Origin: a bacterium
GTDB lineage: Bacteria; Patescibacteriota; Minisyncoccia; Phycocordibacterales; CALRBL01
Direction: 5' to 3'
Length of the DNA stretch: 64,000 bases
Assembly: GCA_027487075.1 (NCBI GenBank)
Contig: JAIYEG010000002.1
Coordinates: forward strand, 79,202-143,201
A model generated the notes under the pieces. The model did not search any database, was not told the DNA's origin, and saw nothing but the letters and a program-made list of their open reading frames with translations. This document shows, piece by piece, positions 2,826-44,960 of this stretch (position 1 is the first letter of the stretch; each line of letters begins with the position of its first letter). Made by a program: the position numbers and the translations under genes.

Positions 2826-2844
2826 TTTTGTGGTATTGTGTGGC

Positions 2845-3190
2845 TCTGCGCCAGACAATCGCTCTCGCTTGCGAGGGAGGAAAGTCCGAACACAGCCAGC
2901 TTCGGCTGGAGCACGTAGCGGGTAACGCCCGTCTTGTCATATTCAAAAAGGGGCAAAGAGGTGCGAGCAGTGACGCTTGAAGCGAAAGCAGAGAGCATCC
3001 ATAGCAATGTGGATGAATCCATGTGGTAACACACGGAGTGAAACGGCAAAATCCTTACGTCTGTGCAAGGCCGTGTCCCACGAAGTAATTCGTGGTGAAG
3101 TGCCGCTCGAGGGTGTCAGCGATGACACTCCCAGATAAATGATTGTCACCACAGCAATGTGGCACAGAATTCGGCTTATCGGCGCAGGAC
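2845..3190 (+). ncRNA. rnpB: RNase P RNA (bacterial type A-like)
   Basis: Conserved blocks in native order: gggaggaaagtccg (CR-I GGAGGAAAGTCCGGGC), ggtaacgcc, ggagtgaaacgg, acagaattcggcttatcgg (ACAGAANCCGGCTTA). P1 pairs ctgcgcc (2846-2852) with ggcgcag (3181-3187). An extended -10 tgGTATTGT sits just upstream. The ORFs called across this region are spurious. Confidence 0.85.
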
Positions 3191-3197
3191 ATACATG

Positions 3198-34170: not shown

Positions 34171-35397
34171 ATGTTAGACACACTATTCAACCGCATTTCA
34201 GCCGACTGGCGAGGCATGCCTCCAGAAGAATTGTTGGGATATATTCGACCAAAGTGTCAGGAAATTTTGCCTTTAGAGCAACTCAAAACCCTCCTTGCAT
34301 CAGGTGCAAAACTCAAAATCAAGCTCGGCGTCGACGCCACAGGATCAGATCTCCATATTGGCCACATCGTGCCACTCATGCTCCTTCGCCAATTCCAGAA
34401 AGCAGGGCACCACATCGACTTCATCATCGGTGACTTCACCGCAACCATTGGCGATCCATCTGGCCGTGAAAGCGAACGCAAGGCACTCACCGCATCTGAA
34501 GTGAAGAAGAATGCAAAAGGCTTCACCGCACAGATCAAGCCATACCTCGACACGCGCAAAGCAAACGTGCACTTCAATTCAAAGTGGCTCTCGAAGATGA
34601 AGATGTCTGACATGATTAGCTACCTCCAACATGTGAGCATGTCATCAGCAACGCAGCGAGAAGACTTCCGCAAGCGCTTGACTGCGGGAAATTCGGTGAG
34701 TCTCGCCGAGACAATCTACGGCTTTCTCATGGGGCTTGATTCGCTCCACCTCAAGAGCAACATCGAAGTCGGCGCTATCGACCAACTCATCAACTTTCAG
34801 CAGTGCCGAGAGCTCATGTCATCACAGGGTATAACTCCTGAAACCGTACTCTGCGTAGCACTCATCGAGGGAACAGATGGTTCGGGAAGAAAGATGTCAA
34901 AGTCGGTCGGCAACACTATCAATCTGAATGCATCATTCGAAGACAAGTTCGGCAAAGTCATGAGCATTCCCGACAAGCTCATCTTGCCGTGGTATATCGC
35001 ATTCACCGACGTGCACGAGAATGAGATCGAACTCTTGAAGAAAGCTATTGAAGCAGATCCGCTCGAGATGAAGAAGCAGCTCGGCATGCTTCTCATTGCA
35101 CTTGAAACGAAGAGCCTGAAAGAAGGACAAATAGAGCGAGAGAAGTTCGAGCGAAAGTTCACGAAGAAAGAGCTGAGCGATGATGACTTTGTGGAAGTGA
35201 AAGCTGAAGCGCACCACACCCTTTTTGACGCACTCGTTCCACACTTTGAAAGCAAGAGTGAACTCCGACGACTGTTTGAACAAGGAGCAGTGAAGCATGC
35301 TGATACTGAGCATGTGCTTACGATAGATTCAACGATTCAGAACAATATGAAGGTGAGGGTGGGGAAGAGGGGGTTTTTTAGGATAATTAACTACTAA
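34171..35397 (+). CDS. tyrS: Tyrosyl-tRNA synthetase
   Basis: HIGH as DLHIGHIV, IGDFTATIGDPSGRESER, KMSKSVGN and a C-terminal S4-like domain. Confidence 0.9.
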   Translation: MLDTLFNRISADWRGMPPEELLGYIRPKCQEILPLEQLKTLLASGAKLKIKLGVDATGSDLHIGHIVPLMLLRQFQKAGHHIDFIIGDFTATIGDPSGRESERKALTASEVKKNAKGFTAQIKPYLDTRKANVHFNSKWLSKMKMSDMISYLQHVSMSSATQREDFRKRLTAGNSVSLAETIYGFLMGLDSLHLKSNIEVGAIDQLINFQQCRELMSSQGITPETVLCVALIEGTDGSGRKMSKSVGNTINLNASFEDKFGKVMSIPDKLILPWYIAFTDVHENEIELLKKAIEADPLEMKKQLGMLLIALETKSLKEGQIEREKFERKFTKKELSDDDFVEVKAEAHHTLFDALVPHFESKSELRRLFEQGAVKHADTEHVLTIDSTIQNNMKVRVGKRGFFRIINY

Positions 35398-36480
35398 ATG
35401 AAGCTTTTTTCTAAAAGAAACAAACCAATATCAAATCATGGATTTGCTTATAGACCGAATAGATTTCATGAAGTTAGCACTATTGGCAACAGATACAGAC
35501 TAGTTTCTAAAGAAACTAGGAATAGAATGGTTTCTGAAATAAAGTTCTTAACATCTAGTGATGATTTTCTAGAGTGGTTTATTTTATTTGAAAATGAAGA
35601 TAAAGGAAAAATTTTTTTTGATAAAAATAAAATTGATAAATTTTCATTATCTGAATTAGGTTACAAAATGTCTGATTTTTTCGATTTTGAAGATTTTGCA
35701 ATGTTAAAACAACGACAAAAACCTGATGATCCCGAAACAGAGTATTTAGACGATTACAAACTTTTTGATATAGCGGAAATTACAATACTATTTTCATTGG
35801 ATAATAAAAGAAGTGCAGTTATAGATAGATTCAATTCTATATTCATTGAAGAGGACACTGATTTTCAAATAATAGAACATCTTATCACCCGTAAATCTGG
35901 TGACAGTATAAAAACATTGCTAAATTTGTTAAAAGACGAAAATTTAAAAAAGAAATTAAAAATGTTTTTTGAATCGTACGATAACTACGATTTTATTAAT
36001 TCTGCTAAAACATCGGCTGATATTCTTAATATTATATTTTCGGATTATATAAAAAATGAGAAATCAAAAAAGATTTCTGAATTATGTAACAAATTAGCTG
36101 ATAAGATTGTAGTGTCAGATACCAAAGGAGATAAGAGAAAAAGATTCCTTGAGTACATGAACGATTTACTTAAGTTATCTAAAAACTTAAGTAATGATAT
36201 CTATGATGTTCGTCATACTGAAAAATCAACAATAATACTTTCTAATGAAAATATCTATAAGTTAATTTCGAATCAAAACATATCTTTAGTTGAGCTAGTA
36301 TTAACCACATTGAAAGATGACTATGTTCTTGGAGATAACTGGGAAAAAATTAAAGACGATTACATTACGAAATATAATATTAATAAATTATCAAGACAAG
36401 TAATTAAAAAGAGAGTTATTCCTACAATTTTAAAAAGCAACGTGGATGACGAGATCGATCCGGATGACATTCCATTTTAA
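35398..36480 (+). CDS. Hypothetical protein, extremely AT-rich, start-stop coupled to tyrS
   Basis: Its ATG directly abuts the tyrS TAA. 360 aa, Lys/Asp/Phe/Ile-rich, no motif recognised. Composition is sharply different from tyrS and ABC-F. Confidence 0.55.
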   Translation: MKLFSKRNKPISNHGFAYRPNRFHEVSTIGNRYRLVSKETRNRMVSEIKFLTSSDDFLEWFILFENEDKGKIFFDKNKIDKFSLSELGYKMSDFFDFEDFAMLKQRQKPDDPETEYLDDYKLFDIAEITILFSLDNKRSAVIDRFNSIFIEEDTDFQIIEHLITRKSGDSIKTLLNLLKDENLKKKLKMFFESYDNYDFINSAKTSADILNIIFSDYIKNEKSKKISELCNKLADKIVVSDTKGDKRKRFLEYMNDLLKLSKNLSNDIYDVRHTEKSTIILSNENIYKLISNQNISLVELVLTTLKDDYVLGDNWEKIKDDYITKYNINKLSRQVIKKRVIPTILKSNVDDEIDPDDIPF

Positions 36481-36523
36481 TTTTACAAGACAAAATCCCC
36501 AATTTGTGCTATAGTCTTTCTCT

Positions 36524-38017
36524 ATGTCAGGCCCCCACAACAACCGTCCTACCGTCATTCGGTTCGACAATACGAGCTTCGAATTCGGTCACAATCACCC
36601 CATCCTGAAGGAGGTCAATTTCAACGTGCGTGCGGGATCAAAGATCACTATCATGGGTCAAAACGGCGCCGGCAAAAGCACCATCTTCAAACTCATCGAG
36701 GGCATCTATCAACCCGAAGAAGGATTCATTCATATTCAGCAAGGCGCAACCATCGCTACGGCAAAGCAGGTCATACCTCGTGACGAGCTCGACCTTTCGG
36801 TCACTGCTTTTTTTGAAAAAGCCCTTGCACGCGTATCTGACAAGAAGATCTATGACATCGACCGTCGCATCGCAAAGGTGCTTGAGATCGTGAACCTCCA
36901 CATCGACCCCGCACTCTACGCAGAGCGCATCGTGCGTTCATTTTCTGGTGGTCAGCAAGCACGTCTTCTCTTGGCATCTGCCATCATCCAGGATCCTGAC
37001 ATTCTTCTGTTGGACGAGCCGACTAACAACCTCGACCATGCCGGCATCGAACATCTCAAGACCTTCATCAAGAACTACAAGAAAACTATTCTCGTTATTT
37101 CCCACGATGCAGAATTTTTGAATTCATTCACCGAAGGCGTGCTGTATCTTGATGTACACACACAGAAAGTGGAACAGTACACCGGAAACTATTACGACCT
37201 CCTCAAAGAGATCACTGCTCGTATCGAAAAGGAAAATCGCGCTAACGCACTTCGTGCAAAAGAAATCCAAGAGAACAAAGACAAGGCGAACTTCTTTGCC
37301 AACAAAGGAGGACAGATGCGCCTCGTCGCCAAGCGCATGCGCGAAAAAGCAGAAGAACTCGAAGAGGAGATGGTGGACGTGCGCAAGGAAGACAAGACAA
37401 TTCGCTCATTCAGTATTCCTTCGCAGCAGGAGTTTGTGGGACCATTGGTGACTATTGAGTCATATAGCATCATCAGCCCGAAGACCCACAAGCCCGTGAC
37501 ACGAAAGTGCGACATCAGCCTCAACAAGAAGCAGCACCTTCTTCTCAAGGGTCCGAACGGTATCGGCAAGAGCACACTCCTTGAGACGCTTGCTTCAGGC
37601 AAAGCAAAAGGTGTGACCATCACTGAAGGAGTGCGCGTCGGCTACTACCGACAGGATTTCTCAACACTCGACTTCGAGCACACCGTATACGAATCGCTGC
37701 GCGAAGCGAATGAAACGACAAGTGACGACAATTTTCGCAGCACGGCAGCAGGGTTCCTCATCGGAGGCGACATGATGAAAAAGAAAGTGGGCATGCTCTC
37801 TGAAGGACAGAAGGGGCTTGTGGCGTTTGCTCGCCTCGTACTCCAAAAGCCGGGACTTCTCATCTTGGACGAGCCGACCAACCACATCAACTTCCGCCAC
37901 ATTCCTGTGATTGCAAAAGCCCTCGATACATACGAAGGTGCCATGATCCTCGTGAGTCACGTACCAGAGTTCGTAGAGCAAATCCGCATTGATGAGACGT
38001 TGGATTTGGAGAAATAA
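36524..38017 (+). CDS. ABC-F family ATPase (tandem ABC domains, no TMD)
   Basis: Two Walker A motifs (GQNGAGKST, GPNGIGKST) and two signature/Walker B motifs (LSGGQQARL...LLLDEPTNNLD, LSEGQKGL...LILDEPTNHIN). Extended -10 tgcTATAGT upstream. Confidence 0.85.
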   Translation: MSGPHNNRPTVIRFDNTSFEFGHNHPILKEVNFNVRAGSKITIMGQNGAGKSTIFKLIEGIYQPEEGFIHIQQGATIATAKQVIPRDELDLSVTAFFEKALARVSDKKIYDIDRRIAKVLEIVNLHIDPALYAERIVRSFSGGQQARLLLASAIIQDPDILLLDEPTNNLDHAGIEHLKTFIKNYKKTILVISHDAEFLNSFTEGVLYLDVHTQKVEQYTGNYYDLLKEITARIEKENRANALRAKEIQENKDKANFFANKGGQMRLVAKRMREKAEELEEEMVDVRKEDKTIRSFSIPSQQEFVGPLVTIESYSIISPKTHKPVTRKCDISLNKKQHLLLKGPNGIGKSTLLETLASGKAKGVTITEGVRVGYYRQDFSTLDFEHTVYESLREANETTSDDNFRSTAAGFLIGGDMMKKKVGMLSEGQKGLVAFARLVLQKPGLLILDEPTNHINFRHIPVIAKALDTYEGAMILVSHVPEFVEQIRIDETLDLEK

Positions 38018-38091: not shown

Positions 38092-38120
38092 CCCCGCCCG
38101 CAAGGGCGGGGAATTTTATT
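38092..38120 (+). terminator. Intrinsic terminator (CCCCGCCC-gcaa-GGGCGGGG + aattttattt)
   Basis: Perfect 8-bp GC stem, GNRA loop and a T-run on the plus strand only. Overlaps the 3' end of the minus-strand toxin gene. Confidence 0.65.
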
Positions 38121-38505
38121 TATATAAGGAATGAAACTGTGCTTTTACTTTTTTAAAATCATTTCCATCAACTTGACCGAGGCGAGTAAAAAGTCTTCTG
38201 TAATCTATAGTTCGCACCCGGTGTAAACAAACCTTCATTTCTGTATTATCTAAAATTAATGGTACATACCATGATCCTTCTTTTATCTGAGTAGTCGTAG
38301 GCGCAACCAAGTAGAAACCACGAGCTAATTTCTTAAGAATCAAACCAGGTCTTGTATAAACAGAGCTTTTACCATTAATTTCAGAACCAATATTTTGACC
38401 AAAACTTATCCACCATATATCCCTTTCACTGACCAACGGAGGAGAAGCTTCGACTGAATGCAGTTTTACCTTTACTGCTATCCACTTTAAAAACACATCA
38501 ATCAT
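38116..38505 (-). CDS. MazF/PemK-family endoribonuclease toxin-like protein with no adjacent antitoxin gene
   Basis: ...ERDIWWISFGQNIGSEINGKSSVYTRPGLILKK...FYLVAPTTTQIKEGSWYVPLILDN...KVCLHRVRTIDYRRL matches the PemK/MazF pattern (RPxLVL, PxTS/T, IRTID.RRL). AT-rich. There is no upstream ORF on the same strand. Confidence 0.7.
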   Translation of the reverse strand: MIDVFLKWIAVKVKLHSVEASPPLVSERDIWWISFGQNIGSEINGKSSVYTRPGLILKKLARGFYLVAPTTTQIKEGSWYVPLILDNTEMKVCLHRVRTIDYRRLFTRLGQVDGNDFKKVKAQFHSLYK

Positions 38506-38541: not shown

Positions 38542-38843
38542 AATATATCTTCAGTTTATCCTAAATTTGGAGAAATAATCTCCTCATGTCAGGATATACA
38601 CGGAACCTCTTACGTGTGAGAGTAACACGTCGATAATCGACCTGAGCCACAATGTCGGCCGTATCTATAACGGTCCGGTGGAAGGAAGAGTCTGCGGCCT
38701 ATCAGCTAGTTGGTGTGACGTAGTAAGTAGCGTCGAGCGAAGATGACGTCGAGTCCAGGTTCACCTGGAGGAGGGTAAATGCCTACCAAGGCTATGACGG
38801 GTAGCGAGAACAGAAGATGAACTCGCCTCACACAAGGGAATCC
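38542..38843 (+). pseudogene. Orphan 16S rRNA 5'-domain-like fragment (E. coli positions about 8-330 equivalent) with a 58-nt insertion
   Basis: 16S blocks in native order: agtttatcct, gtgagagtaacacgt, gcggcctatcagctagttggtg, then the insertion, then ggtaaatgcctaccaaggctatgacgggtagc, then degenerate. Ends in its own terminator. No remainder of the SSU gene follows. Confidence 0.7.
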
Positions 38844-41575: not shown

Positions 41576-43366
41576 ATGCAAAAAGTAACAGACGTTCTTA
41601 TCAATGCCAAGCGGCTCAATGCAATCTTGTGGAAGAACCGCAAGAGCTTTTTGCTATTCTCTATCGTATTCTCCATCATCAGTGCCCTCATTCCGTATGC
41701 AACATCGGGAGTGAACGCACTTCTCGTCAATCATCTCACTACGACTGCGGGGGCGGGCATTTCAGATACACTTCTCGTCCTCGCTCTCACCTCAGCCATC
41801 CTTTTCTTCATCCCAGACATCGTCAGCTCAATCAATACATGGGTAGAAAAACGCATTTGGGTCGACATCGGCCAAATCATTCAACTTCAGTACCTCAAGA
41901 AAAAGGGAGAGATTGATATTCAAACCTACGAAGACCCTAAATTTCTTGATACGCTCAACAAAGCAGAAGATCGTGGTGTGTGGCCGACCACAAACTTTCT
42001 TAGCCTTCAATTCAACGCATTCGGCAATATCATTGGCCTCATCACAGGACTTGGGATTCTCTTGTTCTTCAACTGGATGATCTGTCTTCTCATCATTATT
42101 GCTATCATTCCTCAATTTATCGTGGAGATTAAGTTCAACAACGACACATGGGGAATTTGGAATGCAGATGCTGCAACCCGCCGAAGATTCAATAATCTGC
42201 GTGATCATTTCGAACAAAAGAATTGGCTCATTGAGCTCAAACTCTTCCAGAATGTACACCTATTCTACACACAAATCAAAGAGATTCTCATTTCATTTAA
42301 TGACAAACAACGAAACATCGAGCGTACCAAACTTTTCTTTGAAATTGGTTCGACCATACTAAGTGGAGCAATCATCGGTGGTGTCATCATCTGGGTAGTC
42401 CTCAATGTTGCTAAGGGGGACTCAAGTATTGGCGCTCTTTTGTTTCTCATGACTTCTATTAGCCAACTTCAAGGTTCACTCATCGCATTCCTCAGCCGTC
42501 TTGCACGTCTTCACGAATACAGCTTGTATTGTGCAGACATATTTAAGGTACTCAGTACTTCACCCGCACTTCCGCGTGCTCAGCATCCTGTCACCCTCAC
42601 GGGAGAAACTCCTGAAATCATCTTTGAGAACGTCTCATTCGCATATCCCTCAAGCCCTGAAAAGCTCACGCTCGAACACATTTCACTCACCATTCGCAAA
42701 GGAGAGAAATTTGCGCTGGTAGGAGAAAACGGTGCAGGGAAGACCACCTTCGTGAAGCTTTTGTGCCGTATCTACGATCCCACCGAGGGACGTATTCTCG
42801 TCGATGGTGTTGACCTTCGCAAAATCGACCTCGAGAGCTGGTACAAGACCTTGGGAATTTTGTTCCAAGAATATGCGCCGTATAAGTTTGCAGTGAAGGA
42901 CTCCATTGCACTTGGTCGTTCAGATGACCCCTTCGACTTTGAGCGTATTCAAAATGCTGCACTTGCCAGTGAGTCTGATAGCTTTATCCAACAGTGGCCA
43001 CAGAAGTACGATCAACAGCTTGGCACAGAGTTTGATCAAGGAATCGACCCATCAAAAGGTCAACAACAACGTCTTGCTATTGCTCGCCTCATGCACCGCA
43101 AAGCAGGAGTGCTTATTCTTGATGAGCCGACCGCTGCTATCGACGCAGAAGCAGAGAAGAAGATTTTTGACCAAATCGAACGAGAGGCGAAGAACCAGAC
43201 CGTCATTCTTATTTCTCACAAGTTTTCAACGGTAAAGAACGCAGATCGTATCTGCGTATTCAAAGGAAAGACCGTGCATGAGATGGGTTCACACGAGGAA
43301 TTGCTTCGTAAGAAAGGGACGTATGCGAGGTTGTTTAGTGAGCAAGCGGAGGCGTATACTATCTAA
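41576..43366 (+). CDS. ABC exporter, fused TMD-NBD (MsbA/type I exporter-like)
   Basis: Six-TM N-terminal domain, Walker A GENGAGKTT, signature LSKGQQQRLAIAR, Walker B LILDEPTAAID. Confidence 0.85.
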   Translation: MQKVTDVLINAKRLNAILWKNRKSFLLFSIVFSIISALIPYATSGVNALLVNHLTTTAGAGISDTLLVLALTSAILFFIPDIVSSINTWVEKRIWVDIGQIIQLQYLKKKGEIDIQTYEDPKFLDTLNKAEDRGVWPTTNFLSLQFNAFGNIIGLITGLGILLFFNWMICLLIIIAIIPQFIVEIKFNNDTWGIWNADAATRRRFNNLRDHFEQKNWLIELKLFQNVHLFYTQIKEILISFNDKQRNIERTKLFFEIGSTILSGAIIGGVIIWVVLNVAKGDSSIGALLFLMTSISQLQGSLIAFLSRLARLHEYSLYCADIFKVLSTSPALPRAQHPVTLTGETPEIIFENVSFAYPSSPEKLTLEHISLTIRKGEKFALVGENGAGKTTFVKLLCRIYDPTEGRILVDGVDLRKIDLESWYKTLGILFQEYAPYKFAVKDSIALGRSDDPFDFERIQNAALASESDSFIQQWPQKYDQQLGTEFDQGIDPSKGQQQRLAIARLMHRKAGVLILDEPTAAIDAEAEKKIFDQIEREAKNQTVILISHKFSTVKNADRICVFKGKTVHEMGSHEELLRKKGTYARLFSEQAEAYTI

Positions 43367-43367
43367 T

Positions 43368-44960
43368 ATGAAAACTGGAAAGGCTGAATCACTCGAACAA
43401 ATGAAGAAAGCCGGTTTCAATGTGCCTGATTTTTTTATTGTTGAGCAGAGGCCAACCAAAGAAACAAGTGACACATTTCTCGCCAAGTTTGACGCGCTTA
43501 AGACCAAAAGTGTTGCAGTACGATCTTCAACAAATGTTGAAGATGGGGAACATAATTCTTGGGCAGGGCAGTTCACTTCACACTTGAATGTGGCAAAAGA
43601 AAATCTTATTGAGAAAATAAATAGTTGTTTTGATTCAGTTCATACAACAAACGTTACATCATATAAAAATTCATTTGGTATAGAGAAGGAGATTAGTATG
43701 AATGTTATCGTTCAAAAAATGATTCATGCTGACTATGCAGGTGTAGCATTTTCAGTAAATCCGATAACTAAAAAATCTGATGTTTTAATTGAAGTTGTTA
43801 AAGGTACTGGTGAATCACTAGTTTCTGGCAAAGTAACCCCCCAAACATATCACATTGATAAGACAACTAAACAAATTGATATTGTTAGTAGTGATTCTTC
43901 AGATACCCTAAATTCATTTCCGATTTTACAACTATTTGAAATTATTTTAAAAATAGAATCATTTTATAACTTTCCGTGTGACATTGAATGGGCATACGAA
44001 AAAGATACTTTTTATATTCTCCAATGTCGCCCTATAACAACTATTAAGGACACTGACTTAATCGAAAGTTATATTGCAACACAAAGAATGATCTCACTCG
44101 GTACCCGAGGCCCTGATACACTTGAAGCAAAACTTAAAATAATGGGATGGTCAACAAATTTTAAGAAGGAGTTTGGGGTTGGTTACCGTACCATAGTTAT
44201 CAATTCTGAAGGTAAGCAATACGGTGATTTTGAGAGTCTTGAAAAGATTGATTTCTTTTTTGATAACAGGGATATTTCTTTTGCAAAAAAGTACATCAAG
44301 AAAATGTCAGATTTAAATAGCGACCTGAATGATAAAATATTAAGATTTCCTGATGAAGAATTTATTGAAGAACTTTCTTATCTTTTTACCTACTTTAGCG
44401 CAATTCGTTGGACAATAGAAAATGTTTACAAAAAATCTTCAGCAGAAGATAAAAAATTAATTGATGATTGGAGAAACGACGAAACTATATTTTCGTCACT
44501 GGAGTTATATGGAAAAGTTCACCCTCTTTCTGATCCAGATTCTTGGAGTGTAGTGGGAATCGATGACCAGATCACCATCTTACCAAAAGTAATTAACTGC
44601 GCCATTAAAAGTGAGGCATCCTCTTCTCATGAAATTAAGGGTCAGACAGCTTATCCCGGTATAATTTCTGGCACAGCAAGAGTTGCACTAACGGACGAAA
44701 TTAGAGATTCGATTAAAGAGGGAGATATTATTGTAGCACCGATGACAACGCTCGATTTTACCCACGCCATGTCAATTGCAGCAGGCTTTGTTACTGATGA
44801 AGGTGGAATTACCTGCCATGCGGCTATAGTTGCGAGAGAATTGAAGAAACCTTGCATCATTGGAACACGTAACGGTACTCAAATAATTAAGGATGGTGAC
44901 ATTGTTGAGCTTGATGCAACTAACGGAATTGTGAGAATACTTAATGTACCGGAAGCATAG
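43368..44960 (+). CDS. PEP-utilising phosphotransferase (PPDK_N ATP-grasp N-terminus plus PEP-utilisers swivel-His C-terminus, Rph/PEP-synthase-like architecture)
   Basis: N-terminus ...VAVRSSTNVEDGEHNSWAGQFTSHLNV...GVAFSVNPITKKSDVLIEVVKGTGESLVSGKVTP. C-terminus ...GGITCHAAIVARELKKPCIIGTRNG. An AT-rich middle domain of about 250 aa is unknown. The ATG is 2 nt after the ABC exporter stop. The ORF-track start at 43278 is over-extended. Confidence 0.7.
   Translation: MKTGKAESLEQMKKAGFNVPDFFIVEQRPTKETSDTFLAKFDALKTKSVAVRSSTNVEDGEHNSWAGQFTSHLNVAKENLIEKINSCFDSVHTTNVTSYKNSFGIEKEISMNVIVQKMIHADYAGVAFSVNPITKKSDVLIEVVKGTGESLVSGKVTPQTYHIDKTTKQIDIVSSDSSDTLNSFPILQLFEIILKIESFYNFPCDIEWAYEKDTFYILQCRPITTIKDTDLIESYIATQRMISLGTRGPDTLEAKLKIMGWSTNFKKEFGVGYRTIVINSEGKQYGDFESLEKIDFFFDNRDISFAKKYIKKMSDLNSDLNDKILRFPDEEFIEELSYLFTYFSAIRWTIENVYKKSSAEDKKLIDDWRNDETIFSSLELYGKVHPLSDPDSWSVVGIDDQITILPKVINCAIKSEASSSHEIKGQTAYPGIISGTARVALTDEIRDSIKEGDIIVAPMTTLDFTHAMSIAAGFVTDEGGITCHAAIVARELKKPCIIGTRNGTQIIKDGDIVELDATNGIVRILNVPEA

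What the first reader, a model, noticed from the sequence alone, without database searches (positions are those of the whole stretch)
35398..36480. Extremely AT-rich 360-aa ORF translationally coupled to tyrS
Its ATG immediately follows the tyrS TAA (35395-35400), so it is probably co-transcribed and translationally coupled with an essential aaRS. Its base composition is far more AT-rich than tyrS or the downstream ABC-F gene, and its protein (K/D/E/F/I-rich) has no recognisable domain. This looks like a foreign accessory ORF (addiction, abortive-infection or anti-phage type) hitch-hiking on a housekeeping operon. The same interval also holds the MazF-like gene and the 16S mimic.
Basis: seen in the sequence. 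Interest (0 to 1): 0.55.

Follow-up and report, generated by a model that had tools for sequence, protein, structure and literature searches.

The report
AbiJ-like defence gene behind tyrS
A very AT-rich gene placed directly after the stop codon of an essential tRNA-synthetase gene in a candidate-phyla-radiation bacterium belongs to an uncharacterised family that looks like a single-protein abortive-infection (AbiJ-type) phage defence: a known sensor domain joined to an unusual RNase-like domain.

The parts
34171..35397 (+). tyrS (tyrosyl-tRNA synthetase, 408 aa), the upstream housekeeping gene that most likely supplies transcription and incoming ribosomes to the ORF
   Evidence: Pfam tRNA-synt_1b, E = 4.3e-56. 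It is 70% and 64% identical to tyrS of Saccharibacteria and Nomurabacteria MAGs, and its C-terminus has a normal length.
35395..35400 (+). Stop-start junction TAAATG, with a zero-nucleotide spacer
   Evidence: Read directly from the sequence. No sigma-70-like promoter and no terminator was reported between 35200 and 35400. The only Shine-Dalgarno-like AGGA lies at -17 to -14. The GC content falls from about nt 35375, some 20 nt before the tyrS stop.
35398..36480 (+). The 360-aa ORF: a member of an uncharacterised family, whose named members are Patescibacteria/CPR, that combines AbiJ-NTD4 with a HEPN-like domain
   Evidence: 90 homologues at E <= 1e-30, mostly full length, and 76 representatives of 50%-identity clusters. 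The AlphaFold model has mean pLDDT 84.7. GC is 0.265.
35398..35931 (+). N-terminal alpha+beta domain (aa 1-178): AbiJ_NTD4, the presumed sensor or regulatory module. Residues 13-27 are predicted disordered.
   Evidence: Pfam PF18863 is hit by 11 of 62 members, with a best E-value of 3.2e-8. The consensus of the divergent subgroup scores 42.3 bits against a gathering cutoff of 34, E = 1.4e-10, covering profile positions 1-139 of 152. The window protein itself gives no hit at E <= 1.
35932..36477 (+). C-terminal all-helical domain (aa 179-360): HEPN-like fold and presumed effector, ending in the conserved tail D-D-I-P-F
36193..36216 (+). Signature motif N266-D-I-Y-D-V-R272-H273. The family pattern is N-N-x-I-x-[ND]-[IV]-R-H-[TS]-[DE]. 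This is the candidate active site.
   Evidence: R272 and H273 are invariant in 62 divergent sequences, and N266 is at least 90% conserved. The motif lies just after the long helix 243-267 and before helix 285-304. That is the topological position of the HEPN Rx4-6H motif as described in PMC3710099.
36487..36515 (+). Promoter-like site for ABC-F (AAGACA, 17 nt, TATAGT preceded by TG) in the 43-nt spacer downstream of the ORF
   Evidence: The -10 element ends 9 nt before the ABC-F ATG at 36524. This suggests the insertion landed between the tyrS stop and the native ABC-F promoter (inference).
36524..38017 (+). ABC-F type ATPase (497 aa), the downstream housekeeping neighbour, followed by a strong terminator at 38092-38111
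   Evidence: Pfam ABC_tran twice, plus a sub-threshold ABC_tran_Xtn hit. Terminator.

Best explanation
The ORF encodes a single-polypeptide, AbiJ-like abortive-infection or defence protein. The N-terminal AbiJ-NTD4 domain (aa 1-178) is proposed to act as the sensor and auto-inhibitor. The C-terminal HEPN-like helical domain (aa 179-360) is proposed to be a metal-independent RNase whose active site uses the invariant R272-H273 pair, probably helped by N266 and the conserved acidic residue D208 in helix 2. In the proposed mechanism, binding of a phage component to the NTD releases the RNase, RNA is cleaved, and translation and growth stop before phage progeny are made.

The gene reached this genome by horizontal transfer as a bare ORF, without its own promoter. 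It was inserted exactly between the tyrS stop codon and the ABC-F promoter. It is therefore transcribed from the tyrS promoter and translated by termination-reinitiation at UAAAUG, which would give constitutive expression at a low level.

Shown: the ORF, its composition and the junction; family membership; the NTD4 domain; the HEPN-like fold; the invariant RH pair at the HEPN motif position; absence from relatives' tyrS loci; the variable contexts, which include R-M operons.

Inferred: RNase activity, sensing of phage, the defence phenotype, co-transcription and translational coupling.
For: The ORF, its composition and the junction are established.

The gene is real and conserved. There are 90 and 76 homologues with full-length alignment, a conserved N-terminus MKLFSKRN and a conserved C-terminus DDIPF. 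Identical junctions occur in two other assemblies.

NTD4 is supported, where the consensus scores 42.3 bits against a cutoff of 34.

The invariant R-H follows the long helix directly. [quoted passage not shown] The published description also includes an extra helix inserted between helices 2 and 3 and an acidic residue in helix 2 (PMC3710099).

The context points to defence. The gene lies between hsdM and hsdS of type I R-M operons in L004, which also carries a reverse transcriptase, and in L031. In L032 it is 2 kb from a Type ISP R-M enzyme. Other loci place it near Fic, NYN, Imm5-like or rolling-circle Rep genes, or directly after tRNA genes.

Its GC is below that of the flanks in all 11 loci. 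It is absent from 15 tyrS loci of relatives.

The published model for AbiJ-NTD/HEPN proteins, with the NTD as sensor or antitoxin and HEPN as suicidal RNase, comes from PMC3710099. The Abi_C homologue SadR is reported as a defensive RNase in PMC13590631.

No promoter or terminator lies between tyrS and the ORF. A stop-start overlap also occurs in L004 (ATGA) and the gene overlaps hsdS in L031.
Against: The canonical Rx4-6H motif is absent. No His lies 5-7 residues after R272, and the conserved pair is adjacent (RH).

No sequence-level link to any HEPN family was found. Pfam, including Abi_C, finds nothing for the members (62 scanned at E <= 0.01) or for the consensus sequences (at E <= 10). 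PDB sequence and profile searches give nothing.

PADLOC gives only a weak hit to the uncharacterised candidate PDC-S32. No homologue was found in phage, plasmid or viral-contig collections.

Several homologues have purely housekeeping neighbours (L008, L027/L028).

Translational coupling is suggested only by geometry. There is no expression data.
Confidence: 0.6

Rival explanations
1. The protein belongs to a conflict system, but its HEPN-like domain is not catalytic. Having lost the canonical Rx4-6H, the C-terminal domain would act as a binding or regulatory module. One option is an accessory factor that modulates type I R-M activity. Another is an effector that works by sequestering a target rather than by cleaving RNA.
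Against: R272 and H273 are absolutely invariant, and N266 and [DE]275 nearly so, across sequences that are otherwise only 21-35% identical. That pattern is typical of a catalytic site and not of a binding surface. PMC3710099 documents HEPN families with alternative His or Arg placements that are still predicted to be active, and notes that the residue after the conserved R is often H and contributes to catalysis in the KEN domain. Most homologues are not next to an R-M system.
Confidence: 0.2
2. The gene is a lineage-specific housekeeping or physiological gene of CPR bacteria, for example a translation-related factor that works with tyrS and ABC-F. On this view its AT-richness reflects only its amino-acid composition.
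For: The ORF lies between two translation-related genes with no intervening terminator. The family is widespread, and its named members are CPR. In a TGA-recoded host the gene carries 7 in-frame TGA codons at conserved Gly positions, so it can reside in a genome for a long time. Some neighbourhoods are purely metabolic.
Against: None of the 15 tyrS loci from relatives carries it. The two closest relatives have tyrS followed by trpS and an ABC exporter. No neighbour is conserved across the independent loci, apart from the two related R-M operons. GC3 is also depressed (0.22 against about 0.6 in the neighbouring genes), so amino-acid composition alone cannot explain the AT-richness. AbiJ_NTD4, a HEPN-like fold and embedding in R-M operons all point to conflict systems.
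Confidence: 0.1
3. The gene is the toxin of a two-component toxin-antitoxin ('addiction') module. Its partner would be nearby, either a small protein or an RNA antitoxin, or possibly the MazF-like locus downstream.
For: HEPN toxins often come with MNT or RNA antitoxins (PMC3710099 and PMC13064643). A PemK/MazF-like gene lies 1.6 kb downstream.
Against: No small ORF or conserved non-coding sequence accompanies the gene. Upstream and downstream sequences share nothing between loci, and the neighbouring genes differ everywhere. The repeat search around the ORF found only low-complexity AT-rich chance matches. The MazF-like gene is on the other strand beyond ABC-F and is not seen next to any homologue. 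The architecture is the single-chain NTD-plus-effector type.
Confidence: 0.05
4. The ORF is not a real gene: a chance open frame in AT-rich junk, or an assembly chimera joining DNA from two organisms.
For: There is an abrupt GC step at both ends. The deposited annotation is truncated to 317 aa.
Against: More than 150 homologues align over their full length and share invariant motifs. The structure model is confident. Contigs from two other sequencing runs are 100% identical across tyrS-ORF and tyrS-ORF-ABC-F.
Confidence: 0.01

Closest known systems
AbiJ / Abi_C family: Lactococcus AbiJ (Abi-859), S. aureus SadR, and Abi_C proteins carrying AbiJ-NTD1-5
   Same: Both are single polypeptides with an N-terminal AbiJ-NTD (here NTD4) followed by a C-terminal HEPN-type helical domain. 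Both occur alone or inside R-M operons and are distributed patchily and horizontally. The proposed logic is the same, with the NTD as sensor or auto-inhibitor and HEPN as a suicidal RNase (PMC3710099; PMC13590631).
   Different: The C-terminal domain does not match Pfam Abi_C (PF14355) at any threshold tried. Its conserved motif is N-x5-R-H, with Arg and His adjacent, and not the Rx5H that predominates in Abi_C. The named members of the family are from Patescibacteria/CPR, whereas the Abi_C survey covered Bacilli, Proteobacteria and Actinomycetes and found only 3 of 2,815 proteins with NTD4. The C-terminal domain was found only together with NTD4.
HEPN superfamily RNase toxins: HEPN-MNT toxins (8xdj, 7ae2, 5yep), the AbiA C-terminal domain (8oz7), Csm6/Csx1, RnlA/LsoA
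   Same: These are the best structural matches, with about 100 residues aligned at 2.8-3.7 A rmsd. They share a four-helix core with an inserted helix between helices 2 and 3. [quoted passage not shown]
   Different: Sequence identity is 5-13%, and no profile-level similarity was found. The motif spacing is non-canonical. There is no MNT, CARF or reverse-transcriptase partner domain.
PADLOC candidate system PDC-S32
   Same: This is the only defence-profile hit. P0076 scores E = 1.3e-5 over residues 70-240, and the family consensus scores E = 1.3e-3. Like this family, it is a single-gene candidate, of about 285 aa.
   Different: The hit is weak and partial. The window protein itself does not hit. 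PDC-S32 is uncharacterised, and no paper in the library mentions it.
Accessory defence genes embedded in type I R-M operons (the HEPN/Abi-in-R-M arrangement of Anantharaman et al. 2013)
   Same: Homologues P0013 and P0044 lie between hsdM and hsdS and overlap neighbouring genes, and one of these operons also carries a reverse transcriptase.
   Different: In the window there is no R-M system. The gene is attached to a housekeeping aminoacyl-tRNA synthetase gene.

Membership tests
AbiJ (NTD + Abi_C HEPN) | N-terminal AbiJ-NTD domain (NTD4, Pfam PF18863) | tested here: met
   11 of 62 family members hit PF18863 at E <= 0.01. P0076 scores 34.6 bits against a cutoff of 34. The consensus of the divergent subgroup scores 42.3 bits, E = 1.4e-10, over profile positions 1-139 of 152. 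The window protein alone is below detection, so the assignment is made through the family.
AbiJ (NTD + Abi_C HEPN) | C-terminal Abi_C domain (Pfam PF14355) | tested here: not met
   There is no Abi_C hit for the window protein (E <= 1), for 62 members (E <= 0.01) or for the C-terminal consensus sequences (E <= 10).
AbiJ (NTD + Abi_C HEPN) | Conserved Rx4-6H motif (predominantly Rx5H in Abi_C) | tested here: not met
   The family motif is NNxIx[ND][IV]RH[TS][DE]. No His lies 5-7 residues after the invariant Arg. His is adjacent to Arg, and N266-x6-H273 mimics the spacing (definitions).
AbiJ (NTD + Abi_C HEPN) | Confers abortive infection or phage resistance | not testable with these tools
   This requires phage challenge of an expressing host.
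HEPN superfamily | [quoted passage not shown] | tested here: met
HEPN superfamily | [quoted passage not shown] | tested here: inconclusive
   The position is right. R272 and H273 are invariant and follow helix 243-267 directly, and D/E208 in helix 199-214 is mostly conserved. The spacing is non-canonical.
HEPN superfamily | Metal-independent endoribonuclease activity | not testable with these tools
   This requires a biochemical assay.
Type II/III toxin-antitoxin (addiction) module | A conserved adjacent antitoxin gene or repeat RNA | tested here: not met
   The flanking sequences and neighbouring genes differ in all independent loci apart from the two related R-M operons. There are no meaningful repeats around the ORF.
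Known defence systems in PADLOC-DB v2 | Significant match to a system protein model | tested here: inconclusive
   The window protein has no hit. Family members and the consensus give only weak hits to the candidate PDC-S32, E = 1.3e-5 and 1.3e-3.
Horizontally acquired accessory gene | Atypical composition, absence at the orthologous site in relatives, variable genomic context | tested here: met
   GC z = -4.9 within the window. The gene is absent from 15 tyrS loci. Contexts differ between loci, and the gene's GC is below that of the flanks in all 11 loci examined. Caveat: the closest relatives (70% and 64% tyrS identity) are not syntenic downstream of tyrS, so a clean empty site was not seen.

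The most novel reading that the evidence does not exclude
This may be the founding example of a CPR-wide family of single-protein abortive-infection systems built on a new HEPN variant. Its catalytic centre would be an adjacent Arg-His dyad (N-x5-R-H) in place of Rx4-6H. The family would spread as promoterless, ORF-only cassettes that take over the transcription and terminating ribosomes of host operons, including aaRS genes and type I R-M operons. Its persistent AT-richness holds even in a TGA-recoded host where the gene has clearly evolved in place. That AT-richness would be maintained by selection, for instance to keep a toxic protein at very low expression, and would not simply mark recent transfer.
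Probability: 0.2. Interest if true: 0.65.

Novelty: new variant of a known kind. Interest (0 to 1): 0.45.

Why it matters
Based on my own knowledge of the field, not on a tool result: Patescibacteria/CPR bacteria have tiny genomes, few recognised defence systems and almost no genetics, so how they resist phages is largely unknown.

This family gives a concrete candidate that standard tools miss. It is annotated as 'hypothetical' almost everywhere, it lacks a Pfam model for its effector domain, and PADLOC barely sees it.

If the adjacent Arg-His pair is catalytic, it widens the sequence definition of active HEPN RNases, and motif-based HEPN screens would need to change accordingly.

The placement also shows how a promoterless defence cassette can be expressed: it abuts the stop codon of an essential gene, which has its own bearing on how accessory genes become fixed in streamlined genomes.

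On the practical side, the database entry for this protein starts 43 codons too late and should be corrected.

Tried and rejected
1. Direct scans of the window protein against Pfam, PADLOC, PHROGs, NCBIfam and PDB sequences found nothing meaningful. A family profile searched against PDB sequences also found nothing.
2. Foldseek of the full model against the PDB found nothing significant; the best hit was Csm6 at E = 1.1. The afdb50 library was not available.
3. The profile search with the divergent alignment A2 returned essentially the same family members, because the candidate cap filled with close relatives. It reached no more distant relatives.
4. The search with the C-terminal-domain profile at E <= 10 returned only 9 proteins, all family members of 296-327 aa. 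No alternative architecture and no annotated relative appeared.
5. A viral-contig scan and tblastn against the phage and plasmid collections found no homologue.
6. I looked for the supplement of PMC3710099, hoping for AbiJ/NTD4 alignments to use with hhalign. It is not held as text.
7. I searched for target-site duplications or terminal inverted repeats flanking the AT-rich island. Only AT-rich chance repeats turned up.
8. I looked for conserved upstream or downstream sequence among homologues, such as a promoter, an RNA antitoxin or att sites. There was none.
9. An exact-protein lookup of P0001 failed. Cluster-member lookups gave no organism names.
10. I looked for an empty tyrS-ABC-F site in relatives. 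The closest relatives have trpS after tyrS, so the precise pre-insertion state was not observed.
11. A literature search for PDC-S32 returned no papers.
Full report
**1. The observation**

The ORF at 35398..36480 (+ strand) is 360 aa. Its ATG directly follows the tyrS stop codon, so 35395-35400 reads TAAATG. The ORF's GC is 0.265, against 0.486 for tyrS and 0.502 for the downstream ABC-F gene. Its GC3 is 0.219, against 0.582 and 0.608. The sliding profile drops to 0.25-0.27 only inside the ORF and returns to 0.46-0.51 on both sides.

Among the 42 non-overlapping ORFs of at least 150 aa in the window, this is the extreme outlier. The z-scores are -4.9 for GC, -4.7 for GC1, -2.7 for GC2 and -3.0 for GC3. 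The ORF is also the lowest-GC 500-nt stretch in all 64 kb. The GC step on the left begins about 20 nt before the tyrS stop. The step on the right falls in the 43-nt spacer before ABC-F.

Contigs from two other sequencing runs (L024, L025) are 100% identical to the window across tyrS-ORF and tyrS-ORF-ABC-F, which excludes a chimeric assembly. The only inaccuracy concerns the MazF-like gene and the 16S-like stretch. Both lie 1.6-2.3 kb downstream, beyond ABC-F, and not in the stated interval.

**2. A real, conserved gene**

Direct scans of the protein against Pfam, PADLOC, PHROGs, NCBIfam and PDB sequences gave nothing. Homology searches did better:
- There were 90 proteins at E <= 1e-30. Most are 347-372 aa, cover the full query, and are 40-62% identical.
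- The few with names come from Candidatus Saccharibacteria, Paceibacterota, Kaiserbacteria and 'Patescibacteria group'.
- An exhaustive search of 50%-identity representatives found 76 clusters, reaching down to 23-30% identity.

The N-terminus MKLFSKRN and the C-terminal tail DDIPF are conserved throughout the family. This fixes the ATG at 35398 as the true start. The 317-aa database version (P0001) therefore starts 43 codons too late.

**3. Domain anatomy**

AlphaFold2 with a 40-sequence alignment gave a confident two-domain model, with mean pLDDT 84.7 and pTM 0.73. Only residues 13-27 are disordered.

*N-terminal domain (about residues 28-178, alpha+beta).*
- Ten homologues with precomputed PF18863 annotation hit AbiJ_NTD4 at 25-34.6 bits.
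- 11 of 62 divergent members hit it at E <= 0.01, and no other Pfam family recurs.
- The consensus of the divergent subgroup scores 42.3 bits, above the gathering cutoff of 34. E is 1.4e-10, over profile positions 1-139 of 152.
- AbiJ-NTD4 was defined by Anantharaman et al. 2013 as an alpha+beta domain of about 160 aa fused to AbiJ-type HEPN domains or HEAT repeats. They proposed it as a sensor of viral components and a possible intramolecular antitoxin (PMC3710099).

*C-terminal domain (residues 179-360, all helical).* It matches no Pfam family, and the consensus sequences do not change that.

*Candidate active site.* The only invariant residues across the 62-sequence alignment are E127, R272 and H273. 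N266 is at least 90% conserved. The local pattern is N-N-x-I-x-[ND]-[IV]-R-H-[TS]-[DE]. In the model this segment follows the long helix 243-267 directly and precedes helix 285-304. [quoted passage not shown]

The model also has an extra helix (219-237) between helices 2 and 3, and a mostly conserved acidic residue (D/E208) in helix 2. Both are described features of HEPN domains.

The motif is nevertheless not the canonical Rx4-6H. No His lies 5-7 residues after the Arg. The His is adjacent to the Arg, and N266-x6-H273 mimics the canonical spacing. The same paper notes two relevant points. The residue right after the conserved R is often N, D or H and contributes to catalysis in the KEN domain. 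Some HEPN families (AbiV, AF0298) use alternative histidines.

A profile of the C-terminal domain alone found only family members, 9 proteins of 296-327 aa. The effector domain therefore appears confined to this NTD4 architecture.

**4. Genomic behaviour**

*Relatives' tyrS loci.* None of the 15 tyrS loci recovered from species-representative genomes (tyrS identity 70% down to 33%) encodes a homologue. In the two closest, L009 and L010, tyrS is followed by trpS and an ABC exporter. The gene is therefore not a fixture of the tyrS locus. Synteny downstream of tyrS differs in those relatives, however, so a clean empty site was not seen.

*Contexts of homologues.*

| Locus | Homologue | Neighbourhood |
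|---|---|---|
| L004 | P0013 (Saccharibacteria) | Inside a type I R-M operon: hsdM, DUF4357, the gene, hsdS, reverse transcriptase, hsdR. The start overlaps the upstream stop (ATGA). |
| L031 | P0044 | Inside a type I R-M operon: hsdM, two small ORFs, the gene, hsdS, two ORFs, hsdR. The gene overlaps hsdS. |
| L032 | P0018 | 2 kb downstream of a Type ISP R-M enzyme, with an ATPase_2/DUF234 gene nearby |
| L001 | P0011 | After a Fic gene, and about 95 nt after a tRNA interrupted by a group I intron |
| L005 | P0025 | Next to a NYN-domain gene |
| L008 | P0015 | 210 nt after tRNA-Ser |
| L026 | P0090 | After an Imm5-like gene |
| L029 | P0088 | Near a rolling-circle Rep gene |
| L027/L028 | P0066 | Between metabolic genes |

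The hsdM genes of L004 and L031 are about 77-85% identical across the longer aligned segments. These two loci therefore reflect one older association with R-M and are not two independent events.

*Cassette boundaries.* No upstream or downstream sequence is shared among loci, so the mobile unit is essentially the ORF alone. No flanking direct or inverted repeats were found in the window. No homologue occurs in the viral-contig, phage or plasmid collections.

*Composition.* In all 11 loci the gene's GC is below that of its flanks, by 0.07 to 0.19. In 9 loci it is the lowest-GC window of its size.

In L027 the gene has 7 in-frame TGA codons. Under code 25 these read as Gly at conserved glycine positions. 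The gene has therefore evolved in place in a recoded host while staying 13 GC points below its surroundings. AT-richness thus looks like a family trait and not only a mark of very recent transfer.

**5. Expression in the window (inferred)**

The consensus scan reports no sigma-70-like promoter in the last 200 nt of tyrS. It reports no terminator between tyrS and the ORF, or between the ORF and ABC-F. The first strong terminator is at 38092-38111, after ABC-F. The only Shine-Dalgarno-like element (AGGA) lies 14-17 nt upstream of the ATG.

The simplest reading is co-transcription from the tyrS promoter and translation by termination-reinitiation at UAAAUG. ABC-F keeps a promoter-like site with an extended -10 (AAGACA, 17 nt, TG-n-TATAGT at 36487-36515) inside the 43-nt spacer. 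This suggests the cassette landed exactly between the tyrS stop and the native ABC-F promoter.

None of this has been tested experimentally.

**6. Mechanism**

I commit to the following mechanism: a single-chain AbiJ-like abortive-infection protein. NTD4 senses a phage-derived component and relieves inhibition of the C-terminal HEPN-like RNase. The RNase uses the R272-H273 dyad to cleave cellular or phage RNA and stop translation.

This follows the model proposed for AbiJ-NTD/HEPN proteins (PMC3710099). It is consistent with the defensive RNase reported for the Abi_C homologue SadR (PMC13590631). Reviews stress that even for Lactococcus AbiJ itself the mechanism remains inferred (PMC13064643).

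My confidence that the gene is a conflict or defence gene of this architecture is about 0.6. My confidence that it is an active RNase is about 0.4-0.5.

Rival explanations:
- Non-catalytic HEPN-like binding or regulatory module: 0.2.
- CPR housekeeping gene: 0.1.
- Two-component toxin-antitoxin module: 0.05.
- Artefact: 0.01 or less.

**7. Comparison with known families**

The protein works like an AbiJ-type protein and shares the NTD4 domain. It fails two defining features of the AbiJ/Abi_C family that I tested: there is no Abi_C match and no Rx4-6H motif. I therefore do not file it as an AbiJ family member. It is a new variant, NTD4 fused to a distinct and highly divergent HEPN-like domain.

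In a survey of 2,815 Abi_C proteins only 3 carried NTD4, and no CPR lineage is among the bacterial classes the paper names. This underlines that the present family lies outside what has been catalogued. PADLOC gives only a weak partial match to the uncharacterised candidate PDC-S32, which no paper in the library mentions.

**8. Verdict**

The gene is foreign, of the abortive-infection type, and hitch-hikes on tyrS. I add that the protein does have recognisable domains once the family is used, and that the 'addiction' reading is unlikely.

Novelty: new variant of a known kind. Interest: moderate (0.45). The gene is a credible, testable candidate defence gene family for CPR bacteria, with an unusual HEPN motif and an instructive way of being expressed. 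It fits the established NTD-HEPN Abi pattern, and every functional claim remains an inference.

Noticed in passing
window 38116-38505 (-): A PemK/MazF-like toxin ORF of 129 aa (Pfam PemK_toxin, E = 6.7e-11) runs convergent to ABC-F. Its GC is lower (0.355-0.37) than its surroundings, and the ORF list shows no obvious small antitoxin ORF next to it. It has no PADLOC hit.
   Followed up: partly
window ~38690-38810 (+): The region upstream of the MazF-like gene contains a stretch that, from my memory of the 16S sequence, resembles the region around E. coli positions 230-290 (…CTATCAGCTAGTTGGTG… CCTACCAAGGCTATGACGGGTAGC…). Rfam at gathering threshold reports no rRNA there. A 16S-like fragment next to a MazF-type RNase may deserve its own analysis.
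   Followed up: no
window 38092-38111: A strong GC-rich hairpin (CCCCGCCCGCAAGGGCGGGG) followed by a T-run sits between the convergent ABC-F and MazF-like genes. It is a likely terminator for the tyrS-ORF-ABC-F unit and may work in both directions.
   Followed up: no
window 36487-36524: The extended -10 promoter-like site for ABC-F ends only 9 nt before its ATG, which implies a leaderless or nearly leaderless mRNA. Similar TGCTATAAT/TGCTATACT elements lie close to start codons downstream of homologues in L001 and L008.
   Followed up: partly
window 43278-44960 (+): This is the second-lowest-GC region of the window (0.30-0.33 around 43500-44100). It is a 560-aa ORF whose sequence looked to me like a PEP-utilising / pyruvate phosphate dikinase-type enzyme. 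I ran no family scan on it. Its 5' end overlaps the end of an ABC exporter gene.
   Followed up: no
window 2843-3194 (+): Bacterial RNase P RNA, class A (119 bits). It is the only Rfam family detected in the window at gathering threshold.
   Followed up: no
window 35398-35526 / protein P0001: The deposited NCBI protein for this gene is 317 aa and starts at Met44. Family conservation of MKLFSKRN shows the true start is the ATG abutting the tyrS stop, so the public annotation is truncated by 43 codons.
   Followed up: yes
L001 5550-5857: A group I intron (Rfam RF00028, 91.5 bits) interrupts a tRNA gene immediately upstream of homologue P0011. ARAGORN misses the split tRNA. The homologue starts about 95 nt after the tRNA 3' end, just after a hairpin-plus-T-run terminator.
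   Followed up: partly
L027/L028 7001-8044: Homologue P0066 contains 7 in-frame TGA codons that read as Gly at conserved glycine positions under code 25. The host is therefore a UGA-recoded lineage (Gracilibacteria/Absconditabacteria-like). The W-rich sequences in the database (P0066, P0068, P0078) are probably mistranslations under code 4.
   Followed up: partly
L004 8277-9836 and L005 9142-10140: A reverse transcriptase (RVT_1) is embedded between hsdS and hsdR in the type I R-M operon that carries homologue P0013. An Mtd_N (diversity-generating-retroelement target-like) gene lies near homologue P0025.
   Followed up: no
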